Shown: positions 1,021 through 21,082 of the stretch, piece by piece
Layout of the letters: every line of letters starts with the position of its first letter
Numbering within the stretch: the stretch's first letter is position 1
Assembly: GCF_900079115.1 (NCBI RefSeq)
Contig: NZ_LT549890.1
Coordinates: forward strand, 2,340,001-2,372,000
DNA: 32,000 bases
Source: Saccharolobus solfataricus
GTDB lineage: Archaea > Thermoproteota > Thermoprotei_A > Sulfolobales > Sulfolobaceae
Direction: 5' to 3'
The notes under the pieces: model-generated
Databases searched by the model: none
Seen by the model: the letters and a program-made list of their open reading frames with translations, nothing else
Told to the model about the DNA's origin: nothing
Position numbers and translations under genes: made by a program

Positions 1021-2442
1021 TTTTACTCAAAATGATACAATTTCTATGGAAGAGAAAAATATCAGAGCGGAGTTAGAAAAATCGGCTTATTTCAACACAA
1101 GAAGCAAAAAATTTTCATATTTGTTGAAGAAACTAACAGAAAACGAGTTTATATATAAAGAGTAATACCATTTGTCTAGTATTATCAATAGAGGAAAGTA
1201 GGTGGAAGGACGAGATGAACAAGAAAAGGTTAAAGCGAGGGACTCCATAACTCCGTTATGCAAACCATGATATTACCCAAAACGGAGCTGAAGTCCCTCG
1301 CTATAACTTTAGCAACAAACAATATTAACGTTATCTCTCAAGATCTAGACCCGGAAATAGTGAAAGCAGCACCATCCTTGCTAACCGGAAACAGAGGAAA
1401 ATACTACTTGAAGGTAGTAAGACGAGGCGAGAAAGTAATTAGTAAAGGTCAGAGAACCTTCAAGTTCTACCCAATCTACAGAGAAGTAAAGGGAGAGATC
1501 AACGTAGTCGCTGTAGATGAGACCGGATTAACCGTGGGAGAAAAGGAACAAGAAAAAGCAGAGGGCTTTCTACTCTACAACTGGAAGAGAAAAGGAGTAA
1601 AGATGAGATCCTTGGACCTCGTATATCCCTTAAGGTTACCCCTCCTAGTGGAGGTAGCAGATTTGAGAAGCGACAGTCCATCACAGTTCCTACTCAGGAG
1701 CGTGAGGGAAGTAAGCCAATACATGGAAATAGATTACGTTGTAGCTGACGCCGGATTCTTGAACCTAGGGGTCATCAAGGAAATGCCCGTGAAGACCATT
1801 GTGAGAGGAAAGTCGAACTTGAAGGGATTCAAGGAACTATCTAACGTTCCATTAGTTGAGAAGAGATATGAGGTTAAGGACAAGGTTTACGTTGCGTATA
1901 GGGTCTTGGAATTTGAAGGGCTTTATTATTACGATGTGGTTTACGTTAAGGGGAAGCCGAGGCACTTCATGTTCGTAACGAACTTCGAGGGAGATCCCTA
2001 TGAACTGGCTGAACTCTATAGGTTGAGGTGGCAAGTTGAGGAGGGTTTTAAGGTTAGGAAGGCAAGGATAAGGTATGTTAGGAAGTTGAGTAATAAGATC
2101 TTCTTGTTCCTCTATTACACGGTTCTGGATTCTGCGTGGAATCTAGTGAATCATCTTCTCTTTAACTTCAAGTCCACGTGTAAGAAGGTTTTGTCCTTCG
2201 ATTCATTCGTCAAGCTTCTCTAACTTTCTCGGTGTTCAGAGGAGACTATGCACGTCGTTTTCACCACGTGAGAAAAATTCAGAATTCTCCTCTTATTATT
2301 AGAATTGTACGCTATATTTTTTGCAAATTATTTTAACATGTTATGTTTCATAATAATTTTATTGTTTTTCTCTATATCAATCTCTTTTTGAAAGGACTAA
2401 TATTATATCTTTCAAATGAAATAATTTGGTGAAACACCACTG
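1004..2442 (+). mobile_element. Complete insertion sequence of exactly 1439 bp (ISC1439-type, IS4-like DDE transposase) with 17-bp perfect terminal inverted repeats and a 9-bp target-site duplication
   Basis: IR-L is CAGTGGTGTTTCACCAA at 1004-1020. IR-R is TTGGTGAAACACCACTG at 2426-2442, its exact reverse complement. The direct repeat TGGTAGTGG flanks the element at 995-1003 and 2443-2451. The length of 1439 bp matches the name of the known S. solfataricus element ISC1439. Confidence 0.9.
1258..2223 (+). CDS. IS transposase, DDE type (IS4-like)
   Basis: 321-aa ORF inside the IR-bounded element. VVADAGF is a DDE Asp context. YRLRWQVEEGFKVRK fits the IS4-family Y-x2-R-x3-E-x6-K signature. Confidence 0.9.
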   Translation: MQTMILPKTELKSLAITLATNNINVISQDLDPEIVKAAPSLLTGNRGKYYLKVVRRGEKVISKGQRTFKFYPIYREVKGEINVVAVDETGLTVGEKEQEKAEGFLLYNWKRKGVKMRSLDLVYPLRLPLLVEVADLRSDSPSQFLLRSVREVSQYMEIDYVVADAGFLNLGVIKEMPVKTIVRGKSNLKGFKELSNVPLVEKRYEVKDKVYVAYRVLEFEGLYYYDVVYVKGKPRHFMFVTNFEGDPYELAELYRLRWQVEEGFKVRKARIRYVRKLSNKIFLFLYYTVLDSAWNLVNHLLFNFKSTCKKVLSFDSFVKLL

Positions 2443-3008: not shown

Positions 3009-4400
3009 TCAGCTTAAGATCCTTTTAACTAAGCTCTCCGCTTCCTTGTAATTATAGCTTCTGAATAGTTCTATTTTGCTAGCTTCCATTGAACCTTCTG
3101 CGTGAATCATACCAGTTAACAAGTATCCAGTAAACGTGCTTGCTCCCAATTCCTTAGCTAGTTTTAATACCTTGGCTCTCTCCTCTCCATCAACTGAGCC
3201 CCTCAAGTATTTAACTATATTCTTACCCTCATTACTTTCCAAATCTTCTTGAGATGGCATAGTAGCTATTATGCCTCCAGCAATATCAATTAGATCTCTA
3301 ACAACATCATGGAAATGCATATTGGAATATAATTTGCCGACATTAGTGAAAAGTGGGTTGGGCACAGCTATACCCTCCATGTTTACTGGATATACAGCTG
3401 CGGCTATTGCGCTACTTCTCATAATTTCCTTGTAAAGTATTATGTCAACAATGTCGTCTCTTACATGCTTCTCGTTTTCAATACCATTTACTTGAGATGC
3501 TACTTTAGATGCTCCCAAATACAGATTCATAGTTGCTGATCTATATGATAATGCAGTAAACCTATGGAAAGTCGCAAATAACATTGCCAAAGTTCCCGCG
3601 TAATCGTATTCTCTAAATAAAAACACCCTATCCCAAGGAACGAAAACGTCATCGAATACAGTTAATGTTTCCAACTCATAATCTTTTCTGCTAAGAACTG
3701 AGGAGGAATTACCTTCAATTTCATCAATTGGTCTAATATACATCTTCAAACCTTTAGTATTAGCCGGAATCGCGAAAGCTACCGCGTAATCTTTATCGCT
3801 GTCTCTCATTGCTCTAGTTGGTATAACAATAATCTCATCAGATACTGCAGATTGGGTAGTATGAGCCTTCGCTCCTCTGACTACTATTCCATCGCTTTTC
3901 ACATCAACTATTCTAACATACATATCAGGGTCAACTTGTTCAGAGGGCCTTTTACTCCTATCTCCCTTAACGTCAGTCTGGGCAGTAGCTAGCGTTAAAT
4001 CTTCTTTAGCAACCCTTTCAAAATATTTTTCAACACGTTTGGAGTAATCAGTTCCGTATTTTCTGTCAACTTGTTTTGCCGTGATCATAAGGGCAAAGAT
4101 CGCATCGCTCCCTATAGCTTGCGAAATGTTAAATATACCGTTGCAGTACATCGTTAAATCGTAAATTAGTTTATGTCTATCCAATAAATCCTGAGATGTT
4201 AACGGTATTTTAAAGAACTTGCTGATCTTTCCCATCTTATTATCCTCATAAACTCTATCAGCGTAGTCATATAACTTAGCTGCATGTAATGCAGCTGTCT
4301 TTAAAATATGATGTGCTGTTATGTCTTCCACTAATTTCCCCCTATAATACAAACTTCTTCCATCCTTCAAGGAATTTAGGAAATCATCTCTCGATCTCAT
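3009..4400 (-). CDS. 4-hydroxybutyryl-CoA dehydratase / 4-hydroxyphenylacetate 3-hydroxylase (AbfD/HpaB) family protein, function uncertain
   Basis: 463 aa. The family-typical block is TAQTDVKGDRSKRPSEQVDPDMYVRIVD...GIVVRGAKAHTT. The whole protein has a single Cys (MYCNG), so the Cys ligands of the AbfD [4Fe-4S] cluster are missing. Confidence 0.8.
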   Translation of the reverse strand: MRSRDDFLNSLKDGRSLYYRGKLVEDITAHHILKTAALHAAKLYDYADRVYEDNKMGKISKFFKIPLTSQDLLDRHKLIYDLTMYCNGIFNISQAIGSDAIFALMITAKQVDRKYGTDYSKRVEKYFERVAKEDLTLATAQTDVKGDRSKRPSEQVDPDMYVRIVDVKSDGIVVRGAKAHTTQSAVSDEIIVIPTRAMRDSDKDYAVAFAIPANTKGLKMYIRPIDEIEGNSSSVLSRKDYELETLTVFDDVFVPWDRVFLFREYDYAGTLAMLFATFHRFTALSYRSATMNLYLGASKVASQVNGIENEKHVRDDIVDIILYKEIMRSSAIAAAVYPVNMEGIAVPNPLFTNVGKLYSNMHFHDVVRDLIDIAGGIIATMPSQEDLESNEGKNIVKYLRGSVDGEERAKVLKLAKELGASTFTGYLLTGMIHAEGSMEASKIELFRSYNYKEAESLVKRILS

Positions 4401-6245: not shown

Positions 6246-6842
6246 GTGGTCCAAATGTATAGGTACCCAAAAACTGAAAAGGGGAAGGAGTCATTAAATA
6301 AAATCATAAATGCATCGCTAGACTTAATTTCAGAAAAGGGCTTTTTGAATACTAGTATAAGTGATATAACCAATAAGGCTGGTGTTGCTTACGGTTTGTT
6401 CTATTTCTATTTCAAGAGTAAACATGACATATTAGATGAGTTAATTAGAAAATTTAACACCGATATGAGGTATTATTTAAAGGTAAATACGATGGGGATT
6501 CGAAATAGAATAGAAATGGAAAAGGAAGGTTTAGCCAAATTTTTGGAATGGATGAGCCAGAATAAGAAATACTATAAGGTATTCGTAGAAGCTCAAGTGC
6601 ATAGGCCAGAAATGTATATATGGCATTTCACTAAATTGGCAGAGAGATATAAGATTGGACTAAAAGAGGCTATGGATAGGGGAGAAATAGTAAAAGTAGA
6701 TCCAGAATTACTAGCTTACGTATTAATAGGAATTGGTGAAATGATAGGTAGAAGATATATCCTATGGACGAATCAAGGGTTAACCAAAAAACAATATAAT
6801 GACTTGGCCATTCTTATAGAAAATATGCTGAGACCTAAGTAG
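6246..6842 (+). CDS. TetR/AcrR-family transcriptional regulator (FadR-like candidate regulator of the lipid cluster)
   Basis: N-terminal HTH: TSISDITNKAGVAYGLFYFYFKSKHDILDEL. The track start is GTG 6246. ATG 6255 preceded by GGTG (6246-6249) is an equally plausible start. Confidence 0.9.
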   Translation: MVQMYRYPKTEKGKESLNKIINASLDLISEKGFLNTSISDITNKAGVAYGLFYFYFKSKHDILDELIRKFNTDMRYYLKVNTMGIRNRIEMEKEGLAKFLEWMSQNKKYYKVFVEAQVHRPEMYIWHFTKLAERYKIGLKEAMDRGEIVKVDPELLAYVLIGIGEMIGRRYILWTNQGLTKKQYNDLAILIENMLRPK

Positions 6843-6843
6843 T

Positions 6844-7287
6844 CTAAACAAGGAATTTCGTATTTATTTTATTTGAGACGTTAGCCATAACCACTGAAGC
6901 AGTAGTATATCTTGCCAGATCGAAGAGACTACCTTTCTTAAGCTTTATTGTACCAGATAATAAGGCTGAGACTACTTGCAGTTTACCGCTTATTATATCT
7001 TTCCAAGAATTATAACTTGCCTCAAGTACATATGGTGCATCGGCCTTGGTAACATCTGTGAAAAATTCAATACCTTGACATTTTCCATTATTTAGATATA
7101 GCTTCATTGCTAAGGTGTTAGTACCTTTTACTCCTAAATGCTCTAACACTTGGGTAGGAATGTCGGTTACCACGAATAAAATTGGCGATACCCATCCTTT
7201 CCCTGCATCATTATATTCCTTGCTTTCATTTAGTAATTTACACCATTCTTCTGCCCATTCCCTGCTAGGATATAAAAATTCAGCCAT
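6844..7287 (-). CDS. SCP2 (sterol carrier protein 2 / lipid-transfer) domain protein
   Basis: 147 aa. The C-terminal ISGKLQVVSALLSGTIKLKKGSLFDLARY matches the SCP2 helix/strand signature. It is convergent with the TetR gene with a 1-nt gap. Confidence 0.75.
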   Translation of the reverse strand: MAEFLYPSREWAEEWCKLLNESKEYNDAGKGWVSPILFVVTDIPTQVLEHLGVKGTNTLAMKLYLNNGKCQGIEFFTDVTKADAPYVLEASYNSWKDIISGKLQVVSALLSGTIKLKKGSLFDLARYTTASVVMANVSNKINTKFLV

Positions 7288-7677
7288 AATAAGAGTTAAT
7301 CTGAACTTCTTAATAAGTATTATTAGAAGGAGAAATTTGATGCTTAGTCGGTTTATTGAATATTTTGAAATTAAACCATTATTGTTTTATTTCTGTTATT
7401 ATTAAGGTGTAGAATCTAGGTTTGTAATGGGGAGACTCAGGTTTCCTTTGTGAATTGCAATTTGTAAATAATGCGGTCGTAAAAATGTTAGTATTGGTAA
7501 TCGTGTTTCTCTGCTAACTAGTCGCTTTCATTTAGTTAATTTCATAGTAATCTTTAAAATAAAGTGAATTTGCAATGGATATCCGAATCGCCCTCTTAAT
7601 TCTTTGTAAAATTCAACTACCTTACAAAACAGAAATTTGAACAAGGTTTTTTAATAGGTAGTAAATTATGATTAACG

Positions 7678-8820
7678 ATGATTGTAGGATTTGCCGGAAA
7701 ACTATATAAAAACTATGAGAAAGATGGTATAGAGTTATTGAAAGAGGTCACTGATGAGGCACTAGATATTGCTGGATTGAATTACGCTGACGTCGATGGG
7801 ATAATGGCTAACATCGGAAGAGGCTCATTTCACGGTAATAGGACATATCTTAATCCTCCTGCCCAAATAAGTGAATATTTTGGAATAAAGCCGAAAATTA
7901 TAGAACATGTCCAATACGGAGGACCTTCAGTATTGTCAATGATATATAGGGCTTACAAGGCAATCAAGGCGGGGGATGCGGAGACAATACTTTGCATACA
8001 AGGAGGGAAAATATCTCATTTAAGAGACAATCATTTCCAAAAAACAGATATAATTGATAGTCCCTTTGATGAGTACATTAAGATTTATGACCAGATGTCT
8101 CCAATATCTGATTACGCAATGGTTGCTTATAGACATTCTAAACTCTTCGGTACAACTGACGAACAAAGGGCACGTATTGCAGTGATCCAGAGATATAATG
8201 CAAGTTATAATCCTAAAGCTCTGTTCAGAAATCCTATTACAGTCGAAGATGTTTTGAAATCTAGGATAGTTTCTTATCCTTTACATCTTCTTGAAATAGT
8301 TTACCCTATAGACGGTTTTCACGTTTTTGTGGTAAGTAAAAGGAGTAGTAAGTCAGCCCTTAGAAATATTGACATTTTAGCGTATGGAGAGGCCCATTGG
8401 CCAAATCCACCAGCTGAATGGGATGATATAATTTATACTCCAACAACTGAAAGCGCAAAAAGGGCTTCATTTGACCTAAACCGGGTAGATGCCTTTCAAC
8501 TCTACGACTCATTCACCATAACTGTGATGCTACAAATGGAGGACATAGGGTTAGTTGAGAAAGGTAAGGTTGGACAGTTCGTAGAATCTCATGATTTATC
8601 ATTTAAGGGCGATGTTCCAATTAATACTGGGGGAGGTAGTTTAAATACTGGTCAGCCCGCATACATGAGTGGTGGTGTTATTTTAGAGGAGGCATTACTT
8701 CAATTAAACGATATGGCTAATGGTCATCAAGTTAAAGGTGCAAATGTTATATTTTTAAATGGAATTGGGTGGTGGAGTAGAAGGCACAGTGTAACTTTAG
8801 TATTGGGTGAGCGAAAATGA
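7678..8820 (+). CDS. Thiolase-fold (SCP-x / lipid-transfer-protein type) protein lacking the canonical thiolase catalytic Cys and His
   Basis: 380 aa with overall archaeal thiolase architecture. The nucleophile context V-x-N-A-C-A-S-G reads VQYGGPSV, so Cys is replaced by Gly. The GHP motif reads TGQPAYMSG, so His is replaced by Gln. There is a 4-nt ATGA overlap with the downstream DUF35 gene. Confidence 0.85.
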   Translation: MIVGFAGKLYKNYEKDGIELLKEVTDEALDIAGLNYADVDGIMANIGRGSFHGNRTYLNPPAQISEYFGIKPKIIEHVQYGGPSVLSMIYRAYKAIKAGDAETILCIQGGKISHLRDNHFQKTDIIDSPFDEYIKIYDQMSPISDYAMVAYRHSKLFGTTDEQRARIAVIQRYNASYNPKALFRNPITVEDVLKSRIVSYPLHLLEIVYPIDGFHVFVVSKRSSKSALRNIDILAYGEAHWPNPPAEWDDIIYTPTTESAKRASFDLNRVDAFQLYDSFTITVMLQMEDIGLVEKGKVGQFVESHDLSFKGDVPINTGGGSLNTGQPAYMSGGVILEEALLQLNDMANGHQVKGANVIFLNGIGWWSRRHSVTLVLGERK

Positions 8821-9191
8821 GGGAAGAAGAAATAAGAGAATTATATTTTAAGTATTTCGATGAGAATAAGTTACCGTTTATTCAGTGCAATAAATGTGGC
8901 CATAAGTTTTACTATCCAAGAGTACTTTGTCCTAAATGTGGTTCTTCAGATATTGAAGTTAGGTTTAGTAAAGGTTTAGGTAAAATATTTGCAATGACTA
9001 AAGTTTATAGAAAGGATGGTAGTTACGTTATTTATGGGATAGTTGAGCTTGAGGAAGGGTTTAGAATGTATTCCAATATAATTGAGGAAAGTCAAGCTGA
9101 TATTAATAGGAAAGTTGAAGTAATATTTAAGGAGATTAACGGCAAGAAATATCCCCTGTTTAAGACTGTAACACATTTGCATAACTTTTAA
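8817..9191 (+). CDS. DUF35 protein (rubredoxin-like Zn ribbon plus OB fold), thiolase partner
   Basis: CNKCGHKFYYPRVLCPKCGS is a four-Cys zinc ribbon followed by an OB-fold-length tail. It is translationally coupled to the thiolase-fold gene. Confidence 0.85.
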   Translation: MREEEIRELYFKYFDENKLPFIQCNKCGHKFYYPRVLCPKCGSSDIEVRFSKGLGKIFAMTKVYRKDGSYVIYGIVELEEGFRMYSNIIEESQADINRKVEVIFKEINGKKYPLFKTVTHLHNF

Positions 9192-9533: not shown

Positions 9534-11192
9534 GTGGAGATAATAAAAGGTTTTCCTTCAACTATGATGGATGACTATCAACTAAACGTCACACAAATAT
9601 TAGAACATGCAGGGAAATGGATTGGGGAGCAAGAAATAATCTCTAGGAAAAAGGATGGTACAATCTTTAGATACAATTATGGGGAAGCGTTTAGAAGAGT
9701 TAAGAAACTCGCAAGTTCTCTTAAATCTTTAGGTGTTAAAGTAGGTGATAGAGTAGGAGTACTAGAATGGAACACGCATAGGTTTTACGAATTATACTTC
9801 GCAATCCCTGCTACTGGTGCTGTAATGTTAGAGTTGAATCCTAGACTTCACCCACTTCAATTGGCAAAGATAATTAACCACTCTAAAGTATCATTTCTTT
9901 TCTTAAATGAGGACTTCATTCCTCTAGTTGAGAGTATATCAAACAATATACCATTAGTTAAGAAATTCATATTGATTTCCGATATCGAGAAAACACCCCA
10001 AACTAATTATTATAATTATGAGAGTCTAGTGGAGGAGGGCAATGAGGAATATGAGATACCAATGTTTGATGAGAGGACATCGTGCTACGCAGCATATACT
10101 ACTGGTACAACTGGAGACCCTAAAGGCATATACTATTCACACAGGTCAATTGTATTAAATACATTGGTAATTTCACGTAATATTACAATAGATGATACTT
10201 TTATGCAGTTAGTACCCATGTTCCACGTAAATGGTTGGTTAGGATTTATGGCTGCTACGTTAGTGGGGGCGAAGTTAGTGTTACCGGGTAGATATACTGT
10301 TGATAATCCGAAACCTTTAGTTGACTTAATGATTAATGAGAAGGTTACCGTTACGGCTGGTGTTCCAGAGGTGTTTAGCTCTATCTTAAACTATTTAAGG
10401 AGTATGGAAAACAAACCACTATTTGTGAATTCTAGAATACTTATAGGAGGAAGTGAGCCTCCTCTGAGTCTGGTAATAGGTCTAATGGAGTTTGGATTTC
10501 AAGTTGGACAAGGATATGGCGCTACAGAAACCACTCCATCAGTTGCGGGTAGTGTTGTTAAACCCAGGATAAGAGAAAAATATTCTGACAAGGACATGTT
10601 GGATTTGCTGAGAAAACAAGGTATACCAACTTTTGGAGTTGACATAAGGGTTATTGATCCCTCAACCGGTAAAGACGTACCCCATGATGGTAAAACTATA
10701 GGAGAGTTATGGATCAGAGGACCATGGATTGCTTCCGCATACTATAATGATCCCAGAACTGTGGAATCTTTTGTTGGTGATGGTGTAGATAGGTGGTGGA
10801 GAAGTGGTGATCTAGCTGTAGTAGATGAACTAGGTTATATTAAAATAGTAGATAGAATAAAGGATGTTATAAAAAGCGGAGGAGAATGGATAAGTACAGT
10901 AGATTTAGAGAATCATTTAATGGCCCATCCCGCTGTGGCAGAGGCTACAGTTATAGGCGTTCCTCATCCCAAGTGGGGGGAGAGACCATTAGCTTTTGTT
11001 GTGTTAAGGCAAGGATTTGAAAATAAGGTTAGCAAGGAGGAACTATTGGGGCATTTAGGTCAGAGGTTTGCTAGATGGCAATTACCTGACGATATAATAT
11101 TCGTTAAGGAGATTCCTAAGACTAGTGTAGGGAAATTCGATAAGAAGGTTTTAAGGGAAAAATATAGAGATTTCTTTATTAGCAGTAGATAA
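9534..11192 (+). CDS. Acyl-CoA synthetase (medium/long-chain fatty acid-CoA ligase, AMP-forming)
   Basis: YTTGTTGDPKG is the AMP-binding P-loop. GYGATE, SGDLAVVDELGY and PKTSVGKFDKK are also present. The GTG start at 9534 lies about 25 nt downstream of the TATA-like CTTAAATATA (9504-9513). Confidence 0.9.
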   Translation: MEIIKGFPSTMMDDYQLNVTQILEHAGKWIGEQEIISRKKDGTIFRYNYGEAFRRVKKLASSLKSLGVKVGDRVGVLEWNTHRFYELYFAIPATGAVMLELNPRLHPLQLAKIINHSKVSFLFLNEDFIPLVESISNNIPLVKKFILISDIEKTPQTNYYNYESLVEEGNEEYEIPMFDERTSCYAAYTTGTTGDPKGIYYSHRSIVLNTLVISRNITIDDTFMQLVPMFHVNGWLGFMAATLVGAKLVLPGRYTVDNPKPLVDLMINEKVTVTAGVPEVFSSILNYLRSMENKPLFVNSRILIGGSEPPLSLVIGLMEFGFQVGQGYGATETTPSVAGSVVKPRIREKYSDKDMLDLLRKQGIPTFGVDIRVIDPSTGKDVPHDGKTIGELWIRGPWIASAYYNDPRTVESFVGDGVDRWWRSGDLAVVDELGYIKIVDRIKDVIKSGGEWISTVDLENHLMAHPAVAEATVIGVPHPKWGERPLAFVVLRQGFENKVSKEELLGHLGQRFARWQLPDDIIFVKEIPKTSVGKFDKKVLREKYRDFFISSR

Positions 11193-11227: not shown

Positions 11228-12340
11228 ATGAGTAAAAATGAGGATGAATTAGAAGAGTACAGAATAAAGGTGAGGGAGTGGATAAGGAATAATGTACCGG
11301 AGGAGATAAGGGCTAAAGGAGACATGGCCCCTCCAGATGTCTTAAGAGAGTGGCAGAGAAGAATATATGAGGCTGGATATTTGGGGGTATCTTGGCCAAA
11401 GGAATATGGGGGGTGGGGAGAGAATCCAATTAAGGAGATAATAGTTAGGGAAGAGTTCGCTAAAGCGGGAGTGCCTTATGCCACAGTTGGTTTAGGGGTA
11501 TCGGTAGTCGGTCCTGCAATTATTCTTAACGGTACTGAAGAGCAGAAGAAGAAACATATAAGGAGAATATTAACAGCTGAGGACGTGTGGTGTCAAGGTT
11601 TCTCAGAACCACAAGCTGGATCAGATTTAGCGGGAATAAAGACAAAGGCCGAAGATAAGGGGGAGTACTTTCTAGTTAATGGACAGAAAATATGGAGCAG
11701 TTATGCACATTTGGCAAACTATTGCCTTCTCCTGACTAGAACCGGCGATGTATCGGAGAGACATAAGGGGCTTACCATGCTTATAGTTGATATGAAAAGC
11801 GAGGGAATAAGGGTAAGTCCAATCAAGCAAATTACTGGGAGATCAGAATTTAACACAGTGTATTTTAATAACGTAAAGGTTCCCAAGGAGAATGTGGTGG
11901 GTAAGATCGGTGAAGGTTGGAAAGTAGCGATGTCCACATTAAATTATGAGAGGCTTAACATAGGAACAATATTGTTTACAGTAGAGAGGCTCATTAGGGA
12001 ATTATCTATCAATAACGATCAACTATTCAATACTGCAGAGGAAATTGTAGCGTTAAAGTCATTTTATAAGAGGATATTGGAAAGACTCAAGAAGGGGTAT
12101 ATTGCGGGTCCAGAAGCTGCAGTAATAAAGTTGGTAGCTTCAGAAGCCATACAGAGAGTTTACGAAAACGCAATGGCTAATATGGGGATAGAAGGACTAG
12201 TTATGGAGCGAGAACCTGGATTTAGGCCAGAAATAGCATATGGTTTCTTAGCCTCTAGGTCCATAACAATAGCTGGCGGTACTTCAGAGATATTAAGGAA
12301 TTTATTGGGAGAGGTTGTTCTAGGATTGCCAAAAGGCTAA
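11228..12340 (+). CDS. Acyl-CoA dehydrogenase
   Basis: Motifs are QGFSEPQAGSDLAG, GQKIWSS and IAGGTSEILRN. The MCAD-type Glu position is Gly, while a Glu is present in NYERL, as in IVD/LCAD-type enzymes. GGAGGT (11213-11218) lies 9 nt upstream of the ATG. Confidence 0.9.
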   Translation: MSKNEDELEEYRIKVREWIRNNVPEEIRAKGDMAPPDVLREWQRRIYEAGYLGVSWPKEYGGWGENPIKEIIVREEFAKAGVPYATVGLGVSVVGPAIILNGTEEQKKKHIRRILTAEDVWCQGFSEPQAGSDLAGIKTKAEDKGEYFLVNGQKIWSSYAHLANYCLLLTRTGDVSERHKGLTMLIVDMKSEGIRVSPIKQITGRSEFNTVYFNNVKVPKENVVGKIGEGWKVAMSTLNYERLNIGTILFTVERLIRELSINNDQLFNTAEEIVALKSFYKRILERLKKGYIAGPEAAVIKLVASEAIQRVYENAMANMGIEGLVMEREPGFRPEIAYGFLASRSITIAGGTSEILRNLLGEVVLGLPKG

Positions 12341-12357: not shown

Positions 12358-14349
12358 TTATTCTCCTTTAAATTGGGGTTTTCTTTTTTCTAAGAAAGCT
12401 TTCACTCCTTCTTCTACATCTTTAGTTGTGAATAAAAGCCCAAATAATGTTGACTCTAGAGTTTGTCCAGTCCAGATATTAGATTCGTATCCTAACTCTA
12501 TTGCTAATTTAGCTGCCAATAGTGATATTGGTGATTTTTCAGCTATTTTCAATGCTACTCTTCTTACTTCTTCCTCAAATCTATTACTTGGAACTACTAA
12601 ATCCACTAATCCCATCTTATACGCATCCTCAGCGGAAACCATATCACCGGTATATATCATTAACTTAGCCTTTCCTTTTCCAACTAGTCTGGGTAGCCTC
12701 TGCGTTCCCCCAGCTCCGGGTATTATACCTATATTGATTTCCGGTTGTCCTAGTTGTGCAACCTCAGAAGCTATCCTTATATCACAAGCCATGGCCAACT
12801 CAAGTCCACCACCTAATGCAAACCCATTTATTCCCGCAATTATCGGCTTAGTGTAGAGAGCAATTTTGTTCACAACATTTCTTAAAGTCCTCAACCTTAT
12901 CACGTCTATTGGTCTTAGCGTAATGAACGAGCTAACGTCTGCCCCAGCTGAGAAAGCCCTACCGTTACCAGTAATTATGACTACCCTTACATCACTTCTA
13001 CTTTCTAATTCATCTAGACTCTTGTCAAGTTCACTTACTAACTCTGGATTTAGTGCGTTCAATCGTTCTGGTCTATTTAGTATGATCCACGCTAGCGGTG
13101 GTTCAATACGTATGATAAGGGTGTTCATTTTCTTTTCCTCGACCTTCCCATACTGGTAGAATCCACTTCCCGTCTTTATTCCTAACTTATTCTCTCTTAT
13201 CATTTGAGTTATCATGGGATCTGGATTGAAGGTGTTATAACCAGATAACGCTTTTAGATCTTCCAAAGCCTTAAGTACTGTATCAACTCCTAACTCATCC
13301 GCATATTGGAATATTCCCTTTGGAAGCCCTAATCCCAATCTCACACCTAAATCTATATCATCCCTACTTGCTATTCCTTCTCTCAATAGTCTAGTAGCCT
13401 CATTTACGCCTCCAGCTAAAATTAATGCTGGGTTTAATTTATCAGCTAATTCCTTAGGCAATTCCGGTTTAACATATTTGCCTGGAGCTGGATAAGTGTA
13501 GAAACCTTTACCAGTTTTCACACCTAGTTCGTTATTCTTAAACTTTTGCTCTATCAGACTGCATATCGGTATATCATCTCTTATTCCTAGTTCTTCTCTA
13601 GACTTCGAAACGTAGTACGCAACATCTACCCCTGTATAGTCTATTAATTCAAATACCCCCATTGGAAACCCTAGTTTGTATCTAGCTACTGCATCAACTT
13701 CTCTGTAGTCTGCTACTTTCTTCTCCACTAATATGCATGAGGCGATATTTATTTGACCTAATATTCTATTTACGACATAACCTGGCACATCCTTATTTAT
13801 CATTATTGGTTGTTTGCCAAACTTCTTGGCTAAATCATAAGTTATTTTTGCAGTCTCATCACTAGTTTTATCTCCTTTCATTACTTCTACAAGTTGCATT
13901 AGTACTGGCGGGTTGAAGAAGTGCATTCCCACAACTTTATCTTGTCTTTTAGTAGCTTCAGCTATTTTAGATATTGGTAGACTACTCGTATTTGTAGCTA
14001 ATATTGCATGGGGTGGTAATAATTCGTCAAGTTTTGAGAAAACTTGCCTTTTTATATCCATTCTTTCAGTCGAAGCCTCTATAGAGAAGTCAGCATCACT
14101 TACTGTCTTATCTAATCCCACTATAGTGGTTATTCTAGACATTATGGTATCAACACTTTCTTTTATCTGCCCTCTCTCTTGTAACTTACTTAAACTCCAT
14201 CTTATTCTTTCCAAAGCATTGTTTAATATATCTTGAGATATATCACTTAAGTACACCTTATACCCAGAAATTGCAGCAATTTCAGCTATTCCGTGTCCCA
14301 TTGTTCCTGCTCCTACTACGAGAATCTTTTTAATATCTTCTACTTTCAT
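12358..14349 (-). CDS. Bifunctional 3-hydroxyacyl-CoA dehydrogenase (N-terminal) / enoyl-CoA hydratase (C-terminal)
   Basis: The N-terminal part has VVGAGTMGHGIA (NAD fold), NTSSL and HFFNP. The C-terminal crotonase part has GGGLELAMACDIRIA and QPEINIGIIPGAGGTQRL, so both catalytic Glu are present. This is the archaeal domain order, reversed relative to bacterial FadB. Confidence 0.93.
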   Translation of the reverse strand: MKVEDIKKILVVGAGTMGHGIAEIAAISGYKVYLSDISQDILNNALERIRWSLSKLQERGQIKESVDTIMSRITTIVGLDKTVSDADFSIEASTERMDIKRQVFSKLDELLPPHAILATNTSSLPISKIAEATKRQDKVVGMHFFNPPVLMQLVEVMKGDKTSDETAKITYDLAKKFGKQPIMINKDVPGYVVNRILGQINIASCILVEKKVADYREVDAVARYKLGFPMGVFELIDYTGVDVAYYVSKSREELGIRDDIPICSLIEQKFKNNELGVKTGKGFYTYPAPGKYVKPELPKELADKLNPALILAGGVNEATRLLREGIASRDDIDLGVRLGLGLPKGIFQYADELGVDTVLKALEDLKALSGYNTFNPDPMITQMIRENKLGIKTGSGFYQYGKVEEKKMNTLIIRIEPPLAWIILNRPERLNALNPELVSELDKSLDELESRSDVRVVIITGNGRAFSAGADVSSFITLRPIDVIRLRTLRNVVNKIALYTKPIIAGINGFALGGGLELAMACDIRIASEVAQLGQPEINIGIIPGAGGTQRLPRLVGKGKAKLMIYTGDMVSAEDAYKMGLVDLVVPSNRFEEEVRRVALKIAEKSPISLLAAKLAIELGYESNIWTGQTLESTLFGLLFTTKDVEEGVKAFLEKRKPQFKGE

Positions 14350-17158: not shown

Positions 17159-18082
17159 CCCCTAGATCCAGAGGTAAGAAAGTTTTTAGATTATTTCTAT
17201 AAGGCTAACATTTTAGATTTCACCAAATATTCATTACAAGAAGTTAGAGAAAAACTAAACAAACTCTTAGCAGAAGCTACACCAAAGGACTCTGTATATA
17301 AAATTGAGGATAGGAAGATTAAAGGGTTGGAAACTGAAATACCTATAAGAATATATTATCCAGATAATAAACGAGATCATCCTATAATTCTTCATTTTCA
17401 TGGTGGCGCATGGATTTTAGGCAGTATCGAGACTGAGGATAGTGTTTCTAGAATATTGGCTAATTCTTGTAACTGTATAGTGATTTCAGTTAATTATAGA
17501 CTAGCACCAGAACATAAGTTCCCTGCGGCCGTAACGGACTGCTTTGACTCTATTAAATGGACATATGAGAACGCTGAAAGTATAGGTGGTCATCCGAATC
17601 GAATCGCAGTTTTCGGAATTAGCGCTGGAGGTAACTTAGCTGCAGCTACGTCTATTCTTTCCAGAGATCAAGGGATAAAATTAAGGGCTCAAGCACTTGT
17701 GGTTCCCTTCGTATATCTAGACTTAGCCTCTACATCAATGACTGAATATAGAAAAGGCTATTTCTTGGACATTAACGTACCCATAGATTACGGAATAATG
17801 ATGTACATAAGAGACGAGAAGGATCTTCTTAATCCCATGTTCGTTCCTTTAATTGCAGAAGATCTCTCCAACTTACCACAAGCCATTATTGTCACAGCCG
17901 AATATGATCCCTTAAGAGACCAAGGGGAGGCTTATGCAAAGAGACTAATGGAGGCTGGGGTTTTAACCTTAAGTTTTAGAGTTAACGGTATGGTTCACGG
18001 CTTTTTAGGTTCTCCTAATATTAGTAGGCTAGTTAGTGTAATGGTAGGTTCTGCGCTAAAGGACATCTTAATGAGGGGTTAA
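17159..18082 (+). CDS. Carboxylesterase, hormone-sensitive-lipase (HSL) family; N-terminal cap region present in frame but without a canonical in-frame start codon (probably SSO2517)
   Basis: HGGAW is the oxyanion motif, GISAGG the nucleophile elbow, and DPLRD and HGF are present. The track ORF starts at TTG 17327, but the frame is open from 17138. From 17159 it encodes PLDPEVRKFL..., homologous to the MPLDPQVKELL N-terminus of the paralog at 21076-22011. Confidence 0.85.
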   Translation, partial: PLDPEVRKFLDYFYKANILDFTKYSLQEVREKLNKLLAEATPKDSVYKIEDRKIKGLETEIPIRIYYPDNKRDHPIILHFHGGAWILGSIETEDSVSRILANSCNCIVISVNYRLAPEHKFPAAVTDCFDSIKWTYENAESIGGHPNRIAVFGISAGGNLAAATSILSRDQGIKLRAQALVVPFVYLDLASTSMTEYRKGYFLDINVPIDYGIMMYIRDEKDLLNPMFVPLIAEDLSNLPQAIIVTAEYDPLRDQGEAYAKRLMEAGVLTLSFRVNGMVHGFLGSPNISRLVSVMVGSALKDILMRG

Positions 18083-20125: not shown

Positions 20126-21082
20126 ATGAAACTAATAAGTTTCATTAGGGATAATAGGATAAGAAGTGGTGTTTTAGTTAATGACGAGTTTATAGCAGAT
20201 CTAAACACCTCTTGCTACCTAATGCTAATTGAGAAAGGGGAAGAAGAACAATTTGCCGAGAGGTATTGTAATGCAATAGTACCTCCAGATATGCTAGGGG
20301 TACTTCAAGCTGGAGATAAGGGATTTGAAGTGGTTAAAGAAATTCTGGAATGGTCTAAGAAGAGAAATGATATCCTTTATAATATTAATCAAGTTAAGTT
20401 AAAGGCACCCTTAGTAAGGGCTAATATGTTGAGAGATTTCCTAGCATTTAGGGGACATGTTGAGGCAACTTATAAGAGGAGAGGACAACCTATACCCGAA
20501 GAATGGTTTAGGATTCCCATTTATTATAAGGGAGATCCGGCGATATTTTATGGACATTTAGAGGAAGTACCTTGGCCAAAGTATTCTAAGCTCGTCGACA
20601 TAGAGCTAGAAATAGCTGCTATAATATATAAGAGAGGTAAGGACATTGATAAGATAAGAGCGAGGGATTACATATTAGGTTTCACTATCTTTAATGATTT
20701 TAGTGCGAGGGATATACAAATGGCTGAGATGAAAGGTTTACTAGGCCCAGCAAAGGGTAAAGATTTCGCAAATGGATTGGGACCTTGGATAGTAACAAAG
20801 GACGAGTTATCGGATATTAAGGGGTTAAGAGTCTACGCTAAGGTTAATAATGAAATCTGGTGTGATACTAAGGCAGAGGATATGCAATGGAGTTTTGAGG
20901 ATATGATAGCGTATGTCTCTCAAGACGAGTACATTAGACCGGGCGATGTTTTCGGTAGTGGTACTGTAAGTGGATGTACTGGGTTAGATATAGGCAAATC
21001 GTTAAAGCCAAATAGTAGTATAGAATTATATGTGGAGAAGATAGGGATTCTGAAAAATATTATAGTAAAAAATCATCAATAG
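20126..21082 (+). CDS. Fumarylacetoacetate hydrolase (FAH) family protein
   Basis: Typical FAH C-terminal domain blocks: GFTIFNDFSARDIQ, GPWIVTKDEL and GDVFGSGTVSG. Confidence 0.85.
   Translation: MKLISFIRDNRIRSGVLVNDEFIADLNTSCYLMLIEKGEEEQFAERYCNAIVPPDMLGVLQAGDKGFEVVKEILEWSKKRNDILYNINQVKLKAPLVRANMLRDFLAFRGHVEATYKRRGQPIPEEWFRIPIYYKGDPAIFYGHLEEVPWPKYSKLVDIELEIAAIIYKRGKDIDKIRARDYILGFTIFNDFSARDIQMAEMKGLLGPAKGKDFANGLGPWIVTKDELSDIKGLRVYAKVNNEIWCDTKAEDMQWSFEDMIAYVSQDEYIRPGDVFGSGTVSGCTGLDIGKSLKPNSSIELYVEKIGILKNIIVKNHQ

What the first reader, a model, noticed from the sequence alone, without database searches (positions are those of the whole stretch)
7678..9191. The only thiolase-fold gene of the beta-oxidation core lacks the catalytic Cys and His but keeps a coupled DUF35 partner: candidate Ltp2-type aldolase or pseudoenzyme scaffold
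At the thiolase nucleophile position (archaeal consensus V-E-N-A-C-A-S-G) the ORF reads VQYGGPSV. At the GHP histidine it reads TGQPAYMSG. A Claisen-type thiolase mechanism is therefore unlikely. The gene is nevertheless intact and sits with an ACS, an ACAD and an HCDH/ECH. Its stop overlaps the start of a Zn-ribbon/OB-fold DUF35 gene (ATGA at 8817-8820). The one well-studied precedent for a thiolase fold without the Cys plus an obligatory DUF35 is the mycobacterial Ltp2-ChsH2(DUF35) retro-aldolase of steroid side-chain degradation. An archaeal counterpart inside a fatty-acid cluster would imply aldol-type C-C cleavage (for example of branched or hydroxylated acyl-CoAs) or a non-catalytic scaffolding role. 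It also means the true 3-ketoacyl-CoA thiolase for this cluster must be encoded elsewhere.
Basis: partly seen in the sequence, partly recalled or inferred. Interest (0 to 1): 0.72.

Follow-up and report, generated by a model that had tools for sequence, protein, structure and literature searches.

The report
Cysteine-less thiolase-like enzyme paired with "Trf"

Summary
ORF 7678-8820 (380 aa) has a thiolase fold. It reads Gly82 where thiolases have the nucleophilic Cys, and Tyr276 and Gln326 where they have the catalytic Asn/His and His. Its stop overlaps (ATGA, 8817-8820) the start of a Zn-ribbon/OB DUF35 gene.

The window is Saccharolobus solfataricus. The genes are SSO2508 (annotated "AcaB-6 acetoacetyl-CoA thiolase") and SSO2509.

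SSO2508 is not a decayed gene: dN/dS is 0.06, the same as the neighbouring ACAD. It belongs to a large Gly-for-Cys "Y-D-x-F/Y" family. The closest solved relative by sequence and fold is the Sal bile-acid aldolase (9MYR); Ltp2 ranks further down both lists.

It completes neither known aldolase active site. The catalytic-base Tyr is invariant, but Sal's Cys304 is Ser278 and Ltp2's Tyr344 is Gln326.

In all 33 non-redundant archaeal loci a DUF35 gene follows directly. The usual neighbours are a FabG-like SDR and a CoA ligase, not beta-oxidation genes. The S. acidocaldarius orthologue lies outside its fatty-acid cluster.

SSO2509 is identical to PDB 6HTJ, the published translation recovery factor Trf. 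Neither Trf paper mentions this operon.

Best reading (about 0.45): an alpha2beta2 acyl-CoA C-C lyase, aldolase-type, with a third active-site variant.

The parts
7647..7656 (+). A/T-rich TATA-like box (TTTTTTAATA), centred about 26 nt upstream of the ATG at 7678. This implies a leaderless or near-leaderless transcript.
   Evidence: Read directly from the sequence. Inference from archaeal promoter geometry. Consistent with the use of a '2508sh' RNA with a 5'-triphosphate end as substrate in Martens et al. 2013.
7678..8820 (+). SSO2508 (AAK42641.1, annotated AcaB-6 acetoacetyl-CoA thiolase): a thiolase-fold protein without catalytic Cys or His, member of the Gly-for-Cys Y-D-x-F/Y family. Proposed acyl-CoA C-C lyase subunit.
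7921..7923 (+). Codon GGA = Gly82, at the position of the thiolase nucleophilic Cys (= CtSal Gly89). Invariant in 98/98 aligned homologues.
8113..8115 (+). Codon TAC = Tyr146 (= CtSal Tyr165, near the active site). Invariant in 98/98. Candidate second catalytic Tyr.
   Evidence: The catalytic role is inference only.
8503..8514 (+). Y276-D277-S278-F279 motif, replacing NEAF/HDCF. Tyr276 = Sal Tyr302 = Ltp2 Tyr294 (general base). Ser278 replaces Sal Cys304 and Ltp2 His296.
8653..8655 (+). Codon CAG = Gln326, at the position of the GHP histidine (= Sal Gln352 = Ltp2 Tyr344 in the ungapped alignment).
8817..8820 (+). ATGA stop/start overlap that couples the two genes translationally.
   Evidence: The same -4 overlap, or a gap of -8 to +7 nt, occurs in nearly all archaeal loci.
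8817..9191 (+). SSO2509 (AAK42642.1): DUF35 Zn-ribbon (Cys24/27/38/41) plus OB-fold protein. Identical to PDB 6HTJ, 'translation recovery factor Trf'. Proposed structural partner of SSO2508.
   Evidence: (the published cloning primers match at 8817 and 9172).
6246..6842 (+). TetR-family regulator. By gene order it is the S. solfataricus FadR homologue (AAK42639.1) named by Wang et al. 2019. Probable acyl-CoA-responsive repressor of the cluster.
   Evidence: Its regulation of SSO2508 is inferred, not shown.
9534..11192 (+). AMP-forming acyl-CoA synthetase downstream of the pair.
   Evidence: Only 23-30% identical to the ligases of the SDR-ligase-T-DUF35 operons.
11228..12340 (+). Acyl-CoA dehydrogenase. 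Its 82%-identical counterpart in S. acidocaldarius SUSAZ is the gene directly after FadR there (by position Saci_1108).
12358..14349 (-). Fused 3-hydroxyacyl-CoA dehydrogenase / enoyl-CoA hydratase (Saci_1109 type).

Best explanation
SSO2508 and SSO2509 form one enzyme. It is a central dimer of the thiolase-fold subunit flanked by two DUF35 subunits (alpha2beta2), like Sal-Shy(DUF35), Ltp2-ChsH2(DUF35) and the archaeal KT/DUF35 complexes.

The thiolase-fold subunit cannot form an acyl-enzyme, because Gly82 replaces the nucleophile. It most likely catalyses a Cys-independent C-C bond cleavage or formation on a CoA thioester. The best candidate is retro-aldol cleavage of a 3-hydroxyacyl-CoA to acetyl-CoA (or another short acyl-CoA) plus an aldehyde or ketone.

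Proposed roles, by homology:
- Invariant Tyr276 is the general base on the beta-hydroxyl.
- The Gly82 backbone NH holds that hydroxyl.
- The Gly364/Trp365 backbone contributes to the oxyanion hole.
- The proton donor to the enolate is not the one used by Sal (Cys) or Ltp2 (Tyr344). Invariant Tyr146, or water, are the candidates.

This makes it a third active-site variant of the thiolase-like aldolases. In Saccharolobus the pair has been placed behind the FadR-like repressor, next to a CoA ligase, an ACAD and the hydratase/dehydrogenase fusion. It could therefore take 3-hydroxyacyl-CoAs that the dehydrogenase/thiolase route cannot finish.

Shown here: fold, missing residues, family membership, purifying selection, conserved coupling to DUF35, and identity of the partner with Trf. 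Inferred: complex formation, the chemistry, the residue roles and the substrate.
For: - Closest solved relative is the Sal aldolase. By sequence 9MYR_A scores E 6.5e-52, against 2.5e-13 for the M. thermolithotrophicus thiolase. By fold, the AF2 model (pLDDT 93.5) matches 9MYR_A at E 2e-38, TM 0.88. ST0096 (4YZO), 4U4E and the P. furiosus thiolase 7YVY come next, and Ltp2 (6OK1) is rank 9 at E 1.3e-27.
- Tyr276 and Asp277 are invariant in 98/98 homologues, as are Gly82 and Tyr146. Tyr276 corresponds to the residue whose Phe variant abolishes CtSal activity.
- Arg196 matches the CoA-pyrophosphate-binding Arg216 of CtSal.
- The low-confidence segment 111-135 of the model matches the disordered substrate-lid loop of CtSal.
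- dN/dS is 0.059, equal to the adjacent ACAD.
- The family is large and almost uniformly Cys-less: 858 50%-identity clusters at E<=1e-30, and only about 3 of the roughly 140 top representatives aligned carry Cys.
- A DUF35 gene lies directly downstream in 33/33 archaeal loci, mostly overlapping.
- Paralogues sit in varied catabolic contexts: aromatic dioxygenase genes; CoA-transferase plus enoyl-CoA hydratase; aldehyde dehydrogenase adjacent in three archaeal MAG loci and near the gene in two Bacillus loci; luciferase-like monooxygenase in several. This fits a modular C-C lyase that releases a carbonyl product.
- DUF35 proteins are obligate partners of thiolase-fold subunits in every solved complex, and Saci_1121 needed its DUF35 to be soluble.
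Against: - The catalytic acid of both characterised aldolase types is missing. Sal Cys304 is Ser278, and CtSal C304S/A/H are all inactive. Ltp2 Tyr344 is Gln326.
- Position 278 is Ala in several archaeal sub-clades, so it cannot be essential.
- Sal's oxyanion-hole Gln161 is Pro142 and Gln347 is Ser321.
- The most frequent neighbour is a FabG/PhaB-like (3R)-hydroxyacyl-CoA dehydrogenase/ketoacyl reductase. That fits a dehydrogenase-plus-thiolase logic at least as well as a hydratase-plus-aldolase logic.
- Aldehyde dehydrogenase adjacency is rare: 2/33 archaeal loci within three genes.
- No member of the archaeal clade has been assayed.
- I could not read the model coordinates, so residue proximities rest on homology to CtSal.
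- Recombinant Sso2509 alone is a soluble monomer and has published in vitro and in vivo effects on aIF2 and translation.
Confidence: 0.45

Rival explanations
1. Non-catalytic scaffold or pseudoenzyme. SSO2508/2509 binds acyl-CoA or partner enzymes (SDR, CoA ligase, hydratase) and organises or channels a pathway without doing chemistry itself, as DUF35 does in the thiolase/HMGCS and archaeal FAS complexes.
For: All four canonical thiolase catalytic residues are missing, as is the proton donor of both known aldolase types. Position 278 tolerates Ser, Ala or Cys. DUF35 complexes recruit further enzymes in M. thermolithotrophicus and S. acidocaldarius. An SDR and a ligase are frequent co-directional neighbours.
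Against: The residues that line the thiolase/aldolase active site are the most conserved in the protein: Gly81-Gly82-x-Ser84, Tyr146, Tyr276-Asp277, Asn316-x-x-Gly-Gly, Gln326, Met330-Ser331-Gly332. dN/dS is 0.059, as low as a bona fide enzyme next door. The two characterised members of the Cys-less superfamily are efficient enzymes.
Confidence: 0.2
2. A different Cys-independent reaction on a beta-functionalised acyl-CoA. With the FabG-like SDR making or consuming a 3-ketoacyl-CoA, the protein might carry out direct (non-covalent) CoA-dependent or hydrolytic retro-Claisen cleavage, a decarboxylation (TbSLP has weak malonyl-CoA decarboxylase activity), or an aldol/Claisen-type condensation in a biosynthetic FAS-like module.
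For: The operon FabG-like SDR -> CoA ligase -> T -> DUF35 recurs in Sulfolobales, Thermoplasmata, Nitrososphaeria and Marsarchaeota: SDR in 20/33 loci, ligase in 19/33, both in 15/33. The SDR's best matches are (3R)-hydroxyacyl-CoA dehydrogenase and acetoacetyl-CoA reductases. The S. acidocaldarius FAS complex couples KT/DUF35 to exactly such an SDR. TbSLP decarboxylates malonyl-CoA slowly.
Against: I know of no thiolase-fold enzyme that performs thiolysis or Claisen condensation without a Cys nucleophile. CtSal shows no malonyl-CoA decarboxylase activity. The nearest characterised relatives are aldolases.
Confidence: 0.2
3. The two genes are functionally unrelated. Sso2509 is purely the translation recovery factor Trf acting on aIF2-gamma, and its position after a thiolase-like gene is incidental.
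For: Sso2509 co-purified with aIF2 during outgrowth. It released aIF2 from 5'-triphosphate RNA in vitro and co-immunoprecipitated with aIF2-gamma. Its deletion delayed outgrowth and lowered 35S-Met incorporation. It binds RNA with low-micromolar Kd and is a soluble monomer on its own.
Against: - Start and stop overlap, and adjacency is conserved in 33/33 archaeal loci spanning several phyla, including paralogues within one genome.
- Every solved DUF35 complex is with a thiolase-fold protein, and the positively charged 'RNA cleft' of Trf is the surface that binds the thiolase in 6ET9.
- Tyr85, proposed as an RNA-stacking residue, is conserved in 31/33 partner DUF35s, while the basic loop residues are not.
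- EMSA showed no RNA binding.
- The deletion phenotype, slow recovery from starvation, could be metabolic or polar on the downstream ligase. That last point is inference.
Confidence: 0.05

Closest known systems
Sal-Shy(DUF35) bile-acid side-chain aldolase of Comamonas testosteroni (PDB 9MYR; Rolfe et al. 2025, PMC12329534)
   Same: Best hit by sequence (E 6.5e-52) and by fold (E 2e-38, TM 0.88, 33% identity). Gly at the nucleophile position (Gly89 = Gly82). The Y-D-x-aromatic motif with the catalytic-base Tyr (Tyr302 = Tyr276). Gln at the GHP-His position (Gln352 = Gln326). Tyr165 = Tyr146. CoA-binding Arg216 = Arg196. A flexible lid loop. A DUF35 partner.
   Different: The essential acid Cys304 is Ser278. 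Gln161 is Pro142 and Gln347 is Ser321. The DUF35 is a free-standing C4 zinc-ribbon protein, not the C3H1 C-terminal domain of a MaoC hydratase. There are no steroid genes nearby. The host is archaeal. No activity is known.
Ltp2-ChsH2(DUF35) steroid C3 side-chain aldolase (PDB 6OK1; Aggett et al. 2019)
   Same: Thiolase fold without a nucleophilic Cys. First catalytic Tyr (Tyr294 = Tyr276). DUF35 partner. Significant sequence and fold match (E 1.9e-24; Foldseek 1.3e-27).
   Different: The second Tyr of the pair (Tyr344) aligns with Gln326. HMMER's gapped alternative puts it on Tyr329, which is Tyr or Phe in the family and so not catalytic. His296 of YDHF is Ser278. More distant than Sal, 4U4E and ST0096.
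Archaeal ketothiolase/DUF35 complexes: M. thermolithotrophicus thiolase/HMGCS/DUF35 (6ESQ/6ET9) and S. acidocaldarius Saci_1121/1120 FAS core (Schmerling et al. 2024 preprint)
   Same: A two-gene module with the DUF35 gene directly after the thiolase-fold gene. Expected alpha2beta2 architecture. Frequent association with a FabG-like SDR. One of several such pairs per Sulfolobales genome.
   Different: Those thiolase subunits are active Claisen enzymes. SSO2508 lacks every catalytic residue and is only a remote match (E 2.5e-13 to 6ESQ_A).
Uncharacterised structural-genomics relatives: 4U4E (Sphaerobacter thermophilus 'thiolase') and 4YZO (S. tokodaii ST0096 'thiolase-like protein')
   Same: 4U4E has GG-S-S at the nucleophile site and the same YDSF motif. 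Both are close in fold (TM about 0.83-0.84).
   Different: 4U4E keeps a His at the GHP position (THP). ST0096 reads Ser at the nucleophile position and keeps HD..(T)/GHP. Neither has a known function.
Trf (Sso2509), translation recovery factor (Martens et al. 2013; Kaiser et al. 2019, PDB 6HTJ)
   Same: It is the same protein: ORF 8817-9191 is 100% identical over the 119 residues resolved in the crystal, and the published cloning primers match the window.
   Different: The published function (release of aIF2 from mRNA 5' ends) has nothing to do with acyl-CoA metabolism. The words 'operon' and 'thiolase' do not occur in the 2013 paper, and the 2019 paper does not mention the upstream gene.

Membership tests
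Canonical Claisen thiolases (type I/II, SCP2-type, archaeal type) | Thiolase alpha-beta-alpha-beta-alpha fold | tested here: met
   Pfam Thiolase_C_1 at 1.1e-27. AF2 model with pLDDT 93.5 matches many thiolases at TM 0.8-0.88.
Canonical Claisen thiolases (type I/II, SCP2-type, archaeal type) | Nucleophilic Cys after N-beta3 (xxCxSG) | tested here: not met
   Gly82 aligns with the Cys of 7YVY (AACASG). It is Gly in 98/98 homologues.
Canonical Claisen thiolases (type I/II, SCP2-type, archaeal type) | Asn/His of NEAF/HDCF, and the His of GHP | tested here: not met
   Tyr276 and Gln326 occupy these positions.
Canonical Claisen thiolases (type I/II, SCP2-type, archaeal type) | Acid/base Cys (CxG loop, or the Cys of HDCF) | tested here: not met
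   GIGWW at 362-366 and Ser278. The S. acidocaldarius Saci_1114 orthologue has CVGGG.
Ltp2-type steroid aldolase | Catalytic base Tyr294 in the YDHF motif | tested here: met
   Tyr276 in YDSF aligns with it.
Ltp2-type steroid aldolase | Catalytic acid Tyr344, and His296 as oxyanion-hole residue | tested here: not met
   Gln326 (ungapped alignment, as in the Sal paper's structure-based statement) and Ser278.
Ltp2-type steroid aldolase | DUF35 partner supplied by a MaoC hydratase (ChsH2) within a steroid catabolic cluster | tested here: not met
   The DUF35 is a free-standing 124-aa protein. There is no MaoC or steroid gene in the window.
Sal-type bile-acid aldolase | Tyr302/Cys304 dyad in YDCY | tested here: not met
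   The Tyr is present (Tyr276) but the Cys is Ser278. CtSal C304S is inactive.
Sal-type bile-acid aldolase | Gly at the nucleophile position; Gln352; oxyanion hole of Gln161 side chain plus Gly391 backbone | tested here: inconclusive
   Gly82 and Gln326 are present. Gln161 is Pro142. Gly391 aligns with Trp365, which is Gly in most family members, and only the backbone is needed.
Sal-type bile-acid aldolase | Retro-aldol activity on 3-hydroxyacyl-CoA | not testable with these tools
   Needs an enzyme assay.
Gly-for-Cys 'Y-D-x-F/Y' thiolase-like superfamily (includes Sal, Ltp2, TbSLP, 4U4E) | Gly at the nucleophile site plus invariant Tyr-Asp at the NEAF/HDCF position | tested here: met
   The great majority of the roughly 140 aligned representatives carry Gly plus a YD-x-F/Y motif.
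DUF35 (zf-ChsH2 + OB_ChsH2_C) scaffold subunits | C4 zinc ribbon followed by an OB fold, encoded next to a thiolase-fold gene | tested here: met
   Pfam. Identical to crystal structure 6HTJ, with Zn bound by Cys24/27/38/41. Adjacency in 33/33 loci.
DUF35 (zf-ChsH2 + OB_ChsH2_C) scaffold subunits | Physical complex with the thiolase-fold partner | not tested
   No multimer prediction tool or experiment was available. Inferred from 6ET9, 6OK1, 9MYR, 7PXP, 5M3K and Saci_1121/1120.
Trf (translation recovery factor, Sso2509) | Sequence identity with Sso2509 / PDB 6HTJ | tested here: met
   100% over residues 1-119. Exact-sequence look-up gives AAK42642.1 and 6HTJ_A in one cluster. Primers match.

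The most novel reading that the evidence does not exclude
SSO2508/SSO2509 is a heterotetrameric acyl-CoA aldol-lyase with a third, so far undescribed catalytic solution in the thiolase fold: Tyr276 with Tyr146 or water, and no Cys, His or Ltp2-type second Tyr. It would represent a widespread archaeal family now mis-annotated as acetoacetyl-CoA thiolases. The 'translation recovery factor' Trf would then be its obligate DUF35 subunit. In that case the slow outgrowth of the Delta-2509 strain reflects loss of (or moonlighting by) a metabolic enzyme subunit, linking acyl-CoA/lipid catabolism to restart of translation after starvation. A more speculative extension: the enzyme cleaves tertiary 3-hydroxy-3-methylacyl-CoAs from isoprenoid chains, which the dehydrogenase/thiolase route cannot process.
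Probability: 0.25. Interest if true: 0.8.

Novelty: new variant of a known kind. Interest (0 to 1): 0.62.

Why it matters
1. Annotation. SSO2508 and its many relatives are annotated as acetyl-CoA acetyltransferases or 'thiolase family protein' and are counted as ketothiolase/DUF35 pairs in reconstructions of archaeal fatty-acid metabolism. At least three of the S. acidocaldarius pairs cannot be thiolases.

2. Enzymology. Only two members of the Cys-less thiolase-fold superfamily have been characterised, both bacterial steroid aldolases with different catalytic residues. The archaeal clade has neither set. Its chemistry would extend what this fold is known to do, and thermostable C-C lyases are useful biocatalysts.

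3. Literature conflict. Trf is still drawn into schemes of archaeal translation initiation (2023), but it is encoded as the translationally coupled partner of a metabolic enzyme. This makes a clear experiment possible: do Sso2508 and Sso2509 form a complex, and does Delta-2508 copy the Delta-2509 phenotype?

Tried and rejected
- Decaying pseudogene: rejected (dN/dS 0.059, 0.15 for the DUF35; all homologues intact).
- SSO2508 as the orthologue of the characterised S. acidocaldarius KT Saci_1121 or Saci_1114: rejected. The three S. acidocaldarius relatives (P0008, P0032, P0060) lie at other genome positions and in other contexts. In S. acidocaldarius FadR is followed directly by the ACAD. The Saci_1114 orthologue is a canonical type-II thiolase only 18% identical over 100 aa.
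- FadR-type palindromic operator upstream of SSO2508, of the TetR gene and of the ligase: the repeat finder found no inverted repeat. I did not have the published position weight matrix, so this says little.
- Literature on 'Sso2508' and '2508 mRNA': nothing in the held library. That '2508sh' is a shortened sso2508 transcript rests on its name and my own recollection.
- Literature on archaeal Cys-less thiolase/DUF35 aldolases: none found.
- Window CoA ligase as orthologue of the ligases in the SDR-ligase-T-DUF35 operons: rejected (23-30% identity).
- MR_MLE gene inside the S. acidocaldarius P0032 operon: it is an AraD-type arabinonate dehydratase, probably unrelated to CoA chemistry.
- Neighbourhoods in GC-rich bacterial loci: my simple ORF caller produced shadow ORFs (clusters 9, 40-42), so I drew conclusions only from the archaeal loci.
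- Residue distances in the AF2 model could not be measured, because coordinates are not exposed. No multimer prediction was possible.
Full report
**What is in the sequence.** The first is a thiolase-fold protein: Pfam Thiolase_C_1 at 1.1e-27, with Thiolase_N only sub-threshold. The second carries the ChsH2-type zinc ribbon and a weak OB_ChsH2_C match, that is, DUF35.

The surrounding genes are:
- a TetR regulator (6246-6842);
- an AMP-forming acyl-CoA synthetase (9534-11192);
- an acyl-CoA dehydrogenase (11228-12340);
- a 3-hydroxyacyl-CoA dehydrogenase/enoyl-CoA hydratase fusion on the other strand (12358-14349);
- then metallo-beta-lactamase-fold proteins, MFS transporters, esterases, a phosphotriesterase and a second ligase.

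Pfam on all large ORFs and a tblastn with a canonical thiolase find no other thiolase-like sequence in the 32 kb.

**The catalytic residues are missing.**
- The phmmer alignment with the Pyrococcus furiosus thiolase 7YVY (E 2.7e-22) places its AACASG cysteine on Gly82, its HDAF histidine on Tyr276 and its GHP histidine on Gln326.
- BLASTP against the S. acidocaldarius beta-oxidation thiolase (the Saci_1114 orthologue, with VDRQCASS, NEAF, GHP and CVGGG) aligns NEAF with YDSF and GHP with GQP.
- The loop that carries the second Cys in type I/II thiolases reads GIGWW.

**Identity of the locus.** The DUF35 ORF is 100% identical over residues 1-119 to PDB 6HTJ. That entry is Sso2509, the "translation recovery factor" Trf of Sulfolobus solfataricus (Kaiser et al. 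2019, PMC6996347). The cloning primers published for ORF 2509 match the window at 8817 and 9172-9191.

An exact-sequence look-up gives AAK42641.1 for the thiolase-like protein. Its annotation is [quoted passage not shown] or "thiolase family protein". The DUF35 protein is AAK42642.1. By gene order the TetR gene is the S. solfataricus FadR homologue AAK42639.1 listed by Wang et al. 2019. The genes are thus SSO2508 and SSO2509.

An A/T-rich TATA-like box (7647-7656) sits about 26 nt upstream of the ATG. This suggests a leaderless transcript (inference). It agrees with the use of a "2508sh" 5'-triphosphate RNA as substrate in the Trf work.

**Not a one-off loss but a family.** 2300 proteins match at E<=1e-10. 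All 117 full-length top hits read x-G-G-x-S at the nucleophile site and Y-D-[S/A/C]-[F/Y] in place of NEAF/HDCF. Nearly all read G-Q-P in place of GHP; the few exceptions carry T/S-Q-P, or His in the two most distant hits.

In a 98-sequence alignment the invariant residues are Gly82, Tyr146, Ala165, Arg172, Ser195, Pro201, Tyr276, Asp277, Glu288, Pro314, Asn316, Gly319, Gly320, Gly332, Glu338 and Gly364.

A profile search of 1.84 billion representatives finds 858 clusters (50% identity) at E<=1e-30. Among the roughly 140 best that I aligned, only about three carry a Cys at the nucleophile site. The third motif residue varies (S, A, C, D, P, N) and the GHP position is H, Q, Y or N.

The archaeal clade of SSO2508 covers Sulfolobales, Thermoplasmata, Nitrososphaeria/Conexivisphaerales and Marsarchaeota. 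It combines Ser (or Ala) with Gln, the most stripped-down combination.

Between S. solfataricus and S. islandicus the gene has dN/dS 0.059, the same as the neighbouring ACAD (0.062). The DUF35 gene has 0.15. It is under strong purifying selection.

**Closest characterised relatives.**
- By sequence: 9MYR_A (E 6.5e-52), 4U4E (2.4e-39), 4YZO (5.4e-29), 6OK1_A Ltp2 (1.9e-24). Bona fide thiolases follow, from the P. furiosus thiolase 7YVY (2.7e-22) down to 6ESQ_A (2.5e-13).
- By fold: an AlphaFold2 model (mean pLDDT 93.5, pTM 0.94) matches 9MYR_A best (E 2e-38, TM 0.88). ST0096, 4U4E, 7YVY, Ltp2, TbSLP and the archaeal thiolase follow.

9MYR is the Sal-Shy(DUF35) bile-acid aldolase of Comamonas testosteroni (Rolfe et al. 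2025, PMC12329534). The chain numbering in the alignment is offset by +24 from the paper's numbering. With that offset the mapping is:

| CtSal residue | Role in CtSal | SSO2508 |
|---|---|---|
| Gly89 | at the thiolase Cys position; backbone NH to the beta-OH | Gly82 |
| Tyr302 | catalytic base | Tyr276 |
| Cys304 | catalytic acid; C304A/S/H inactive | Ser278 |
| Tyr305 | modest effect when mutated | Phe279 |
| Gln347 | | Ser321 |
| Gln352 | | Gln326 |
| Gln161 | oxyanion-hole side chain | Pro142 |
| Tyr165 | near the active site | Tyr146 |
| Gly391 | oxyanion-hole backbone | Trp365 (Gly in most of the family) |
| Arg216 | CoA pyrophosphate binding | Arg196 |

.

For Ltp2, Tyr294 corresponds to Tyr276. 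Tyr344 corresponds to Gln326 and His296 to Ser278. HMMER's alternative gapped alignment puts Tyr344 on Tyr329, but that position is Tyr or Phe in the family and cannot be catalytic.

The only low-confidence part of the model (residues 111-135) corresponds to the flexible lid loop that is disordered in CtSal.

The protein therefore belongs to the same superfamily as the two known thiolase-fold aldolases and keeps their common base. It completes neither active site.

**Genomic context elsewhere.** I collected 80 loci from reference genomes plus seven more by exact look-up, called ORFs, clustered them and named the clusters with Pfam and NCBIfam.

In 33 non-redundant archaeal loci:
- A DUF35 gene follows on the same strand in 33/33, usually overlapping by 4 or 8 nt.
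- An AMP-forming CoA ligase lies within three genes in 19. A FabG/PhaB-like SDR lies within three genes in 20, and both in 15. The typical order is SDR -> ligase -> T -> DUF35. The SDR's best matches are (3R)-hydroxyacyl-CoA dehydrogenase and acetoacetyl-CoA reductases.
- Enoyl-CoA hydratase is present in 7, luciferase-like monooxygenase in 3, aldehyde dehydrogenase in 2 and CoA-transferase III in 2.
- An ACAD is present only in the window.

An aldehyde dehydrogenase also lies near the gene in two Bacillus loci.

S. acidocaldarius has three family members, none in its saci_1103-1126 fatty-acid cluster:
- the 73%-identical orthologue sits beside an Opp-type ABC transporter and an M20 peptidase;
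- a second sits in SDR-ligase-AraD-T-DUF35;
- a third sits among Rieske dioxygenase and LigAB genes.

In S. acidocaldarius FadR is followed directly by the ACAD. In S. solfataricus and S. islandicus, T-DUF35-ligase is inserted between them. Placement in the beta-oxidation cluster is therefore specific to Saccharolobus. The window's ligase is not orthologous to those of the conserved operon (23-30% identity).

**What it most likely does.** The shown facts are:
- a well-folded thiolase-type protein with no possible acyl-enzyme nucleophile;
- a conserved putative active site centred on Tyr276/Asp277, Tyr146, Gly81-Gly82, Asn316 and Gln326;
- strong purifying selection;
- obligatory genetic coupling to DUF35;
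- recruitment of paralogous pairs into different catabolic neighbourhoods, always with CoA-activating enzymes.

The two characterised members of the superfamily are retro-aldolases that cleave 3-hydroxyacyl-CoAs. From this I infer an alpha2beta2 complex that performs a Cys-independent C-C cleavage on a CoA thioester. The most probable reaction is retro-aldol, with Tyr276 as base. The proton donor would differ from Sal and Ltp2; invariant Tyr146 is the obvious candidate and would amount to a re-invented Tyr pair.

I put this at about 0.45. The main weaknesses are:
- the missing acid;
- Ala at position 278 in some sub-clades;
- the replacement of Sal's Gln161;
- the frequent FabG-like SDR neighbour, which would fit thiolase-type logic equally well.

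Alternatives:
- a non-catalytic scaffold (0.2). This fits the missing residues, but the conservation pattern and dN/dS argue against it;
- another Cys-independent reaction on 3-keto- or malonyl-type thioesters, possibly in a FAS-like module with the SDR (0.2);
- mere coincidence of the two genes, with Sso2509 acting only in translation (0.05).

**The Trf issue.** Martens et al. 2013 found Sso2509 co-purifying with His-tagged aIF2-gamma during outgrowth from long stationary phase. They showed release of aIF2 from a 5'-triphosphate RNA in vitro, and slower outgrowth and protein synthesis in a deletion strain. EMSA showed no RNA binding.

Kaiser et al. 2019 solved the structure and measured micromolar RNA binding. 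They noted that Trf is structurally closest to the DUF35 subunits of acyl-CoA enzyme complexes, and that its positively charged cleft is the surface that binds the thiolase in 6ET9.

The words "operon" and "thiolase" do not occur in the 2013 paper, and the 2019 paper does not mention the upstream gene. A 2023 paper still lists Trf as a translation factor.

The evidence here points to a primary role as the partner subunit of SSO2508:
- start/stop overlap;
- adjacency in 33/33 loci;
- Tyr85 (proposed RNA-stacking residue) conserved in 31/33 partner DUF35s across phyla, while the basic loop residues are not.

The translation phenotype may be moonlighting, an indirect metabolic effect on recovery from starvation, or a polar effect. 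I cannot decide between these.

**Comparison with what is known, and novelty.** It works most like Sal and Ltp2, but it fails a defining feature of each (Cys304; Tyr344/His296). I therefore do not file it as a member of either. It is a member of the broader Gly-for-Cys Y-D-x-F/Y thiolase-like superfamily and of the DUF35-partnered thiolase-fold complexes.

The Schmerling et al. 2024 preprint counts seven KT/DUF35 pairs in S. acidocaldarius and suggests different substrates. It does not mention catalytic residues or aldolases. I found no paper describing the archaeal Cys-less clade.

I rate it a new variant of a known kind. The interest is moderate to high because of the uncharacterised active site, the widespread mis-annotation and the conflict with the Trf literature.

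**Limits.**
- No enzyme data exist for this clade.
- No multimer prediction was possible.
- My ORF calling is crude for GC-rich bacterial loci, so context conclusions are restricted to archaea.
- Aldehyde dehydrogenase adjacency is rare and only suggestive.

Noticed in passing
window 6844-7287 (-): A 147-aa ORF between the FadR-like TetR gene and SSO2508 has no Pfam hit. It is conserved at the same place in S. islandicus (L087 6210-6653).
   Followed up: partly
window 17327-18082 (+): An Abhydrolase_3 esterase ORF starts with TTG and is about 60 aa shorter than its paralogue at 21076-22011 (311 aa). It may be 5'-truncated or have a mis-called start. S. islandicus has only small ORFs at the corresponding place.
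   Followed up: no
window 22046-22990 (-): A 314-aa phosphotriesterase-family gene (PF02126, E 9e-80). By position and length it is the SsoPox-type lactonase/phosphotriesterase (name from my own recollection). It sits among esterases, a fumarylacetoacetate-hydrolase-family gene and metallo-beta-lactamase-fold genes in the same FadR-linked cluster.
   Followed up: no
window 30124-30860 (-): An overlapping HEPN (130 aa) and minimal nucleotidyltransferase (122 aa) gene pair, a typical toxin-antitoxin-like module.
   Followed up: no
window 1258-2223 (+): A DDE-type IS transposase ORF (PF01609) at the left side of the cluster. Next to it are an HpaB-like flavin monooxygenase (3009-4400, -) and an STK_08120-like protein (2545-2949, -).
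   Followed up: no
L004 6628-11498 (S. acidocaldarius, about 2.0 Mb): A paralogous Cys-less thiolase-like/DUF35 pair lies in a co-directional run FabG-like SDR -> CoA ligase -> AraD-type arabinonate dehydratase (NCBIfam equivalog, 698 bits) -> T -> DUF35. This is an odd mix of sugar-acid and CoA-thioester enzymes.
   Followed up: partly
L034 9986-11142 and L035 9820-10909 (Vulcanisaeta): The thiolase-like gene is split into two consecutive ORFs in both draft genomes, and the adjacent ligase is also fragmented. These are either real frameshifts or sequencing errors in the drafts.
   Followed up: no
PDB 4YZO (S. tokodaii ST0096), seen: Another Sulfolobales 'thiolase-like protein' structure reads Ser instead of Cys at the nucleophile position (VDNTSGSGG) but keeps HD and GHP. 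It is a second, different kind of atypical thiolase-fold protein in the same order.
   Followed up: no
L005 (S. acidocaldarius SUSAZ, about 0.92 Mb): A third paralogous pair sits among Rieske ring-hydroxylating dioxygenase subunits, LigA/LigB extradiol dioxygenase genes, a CoA ligase and a luciferase-like monooxygenase. This hints at a role in aromatic-acid side-chain or ring-fission product catabolism.
   Followed up: no
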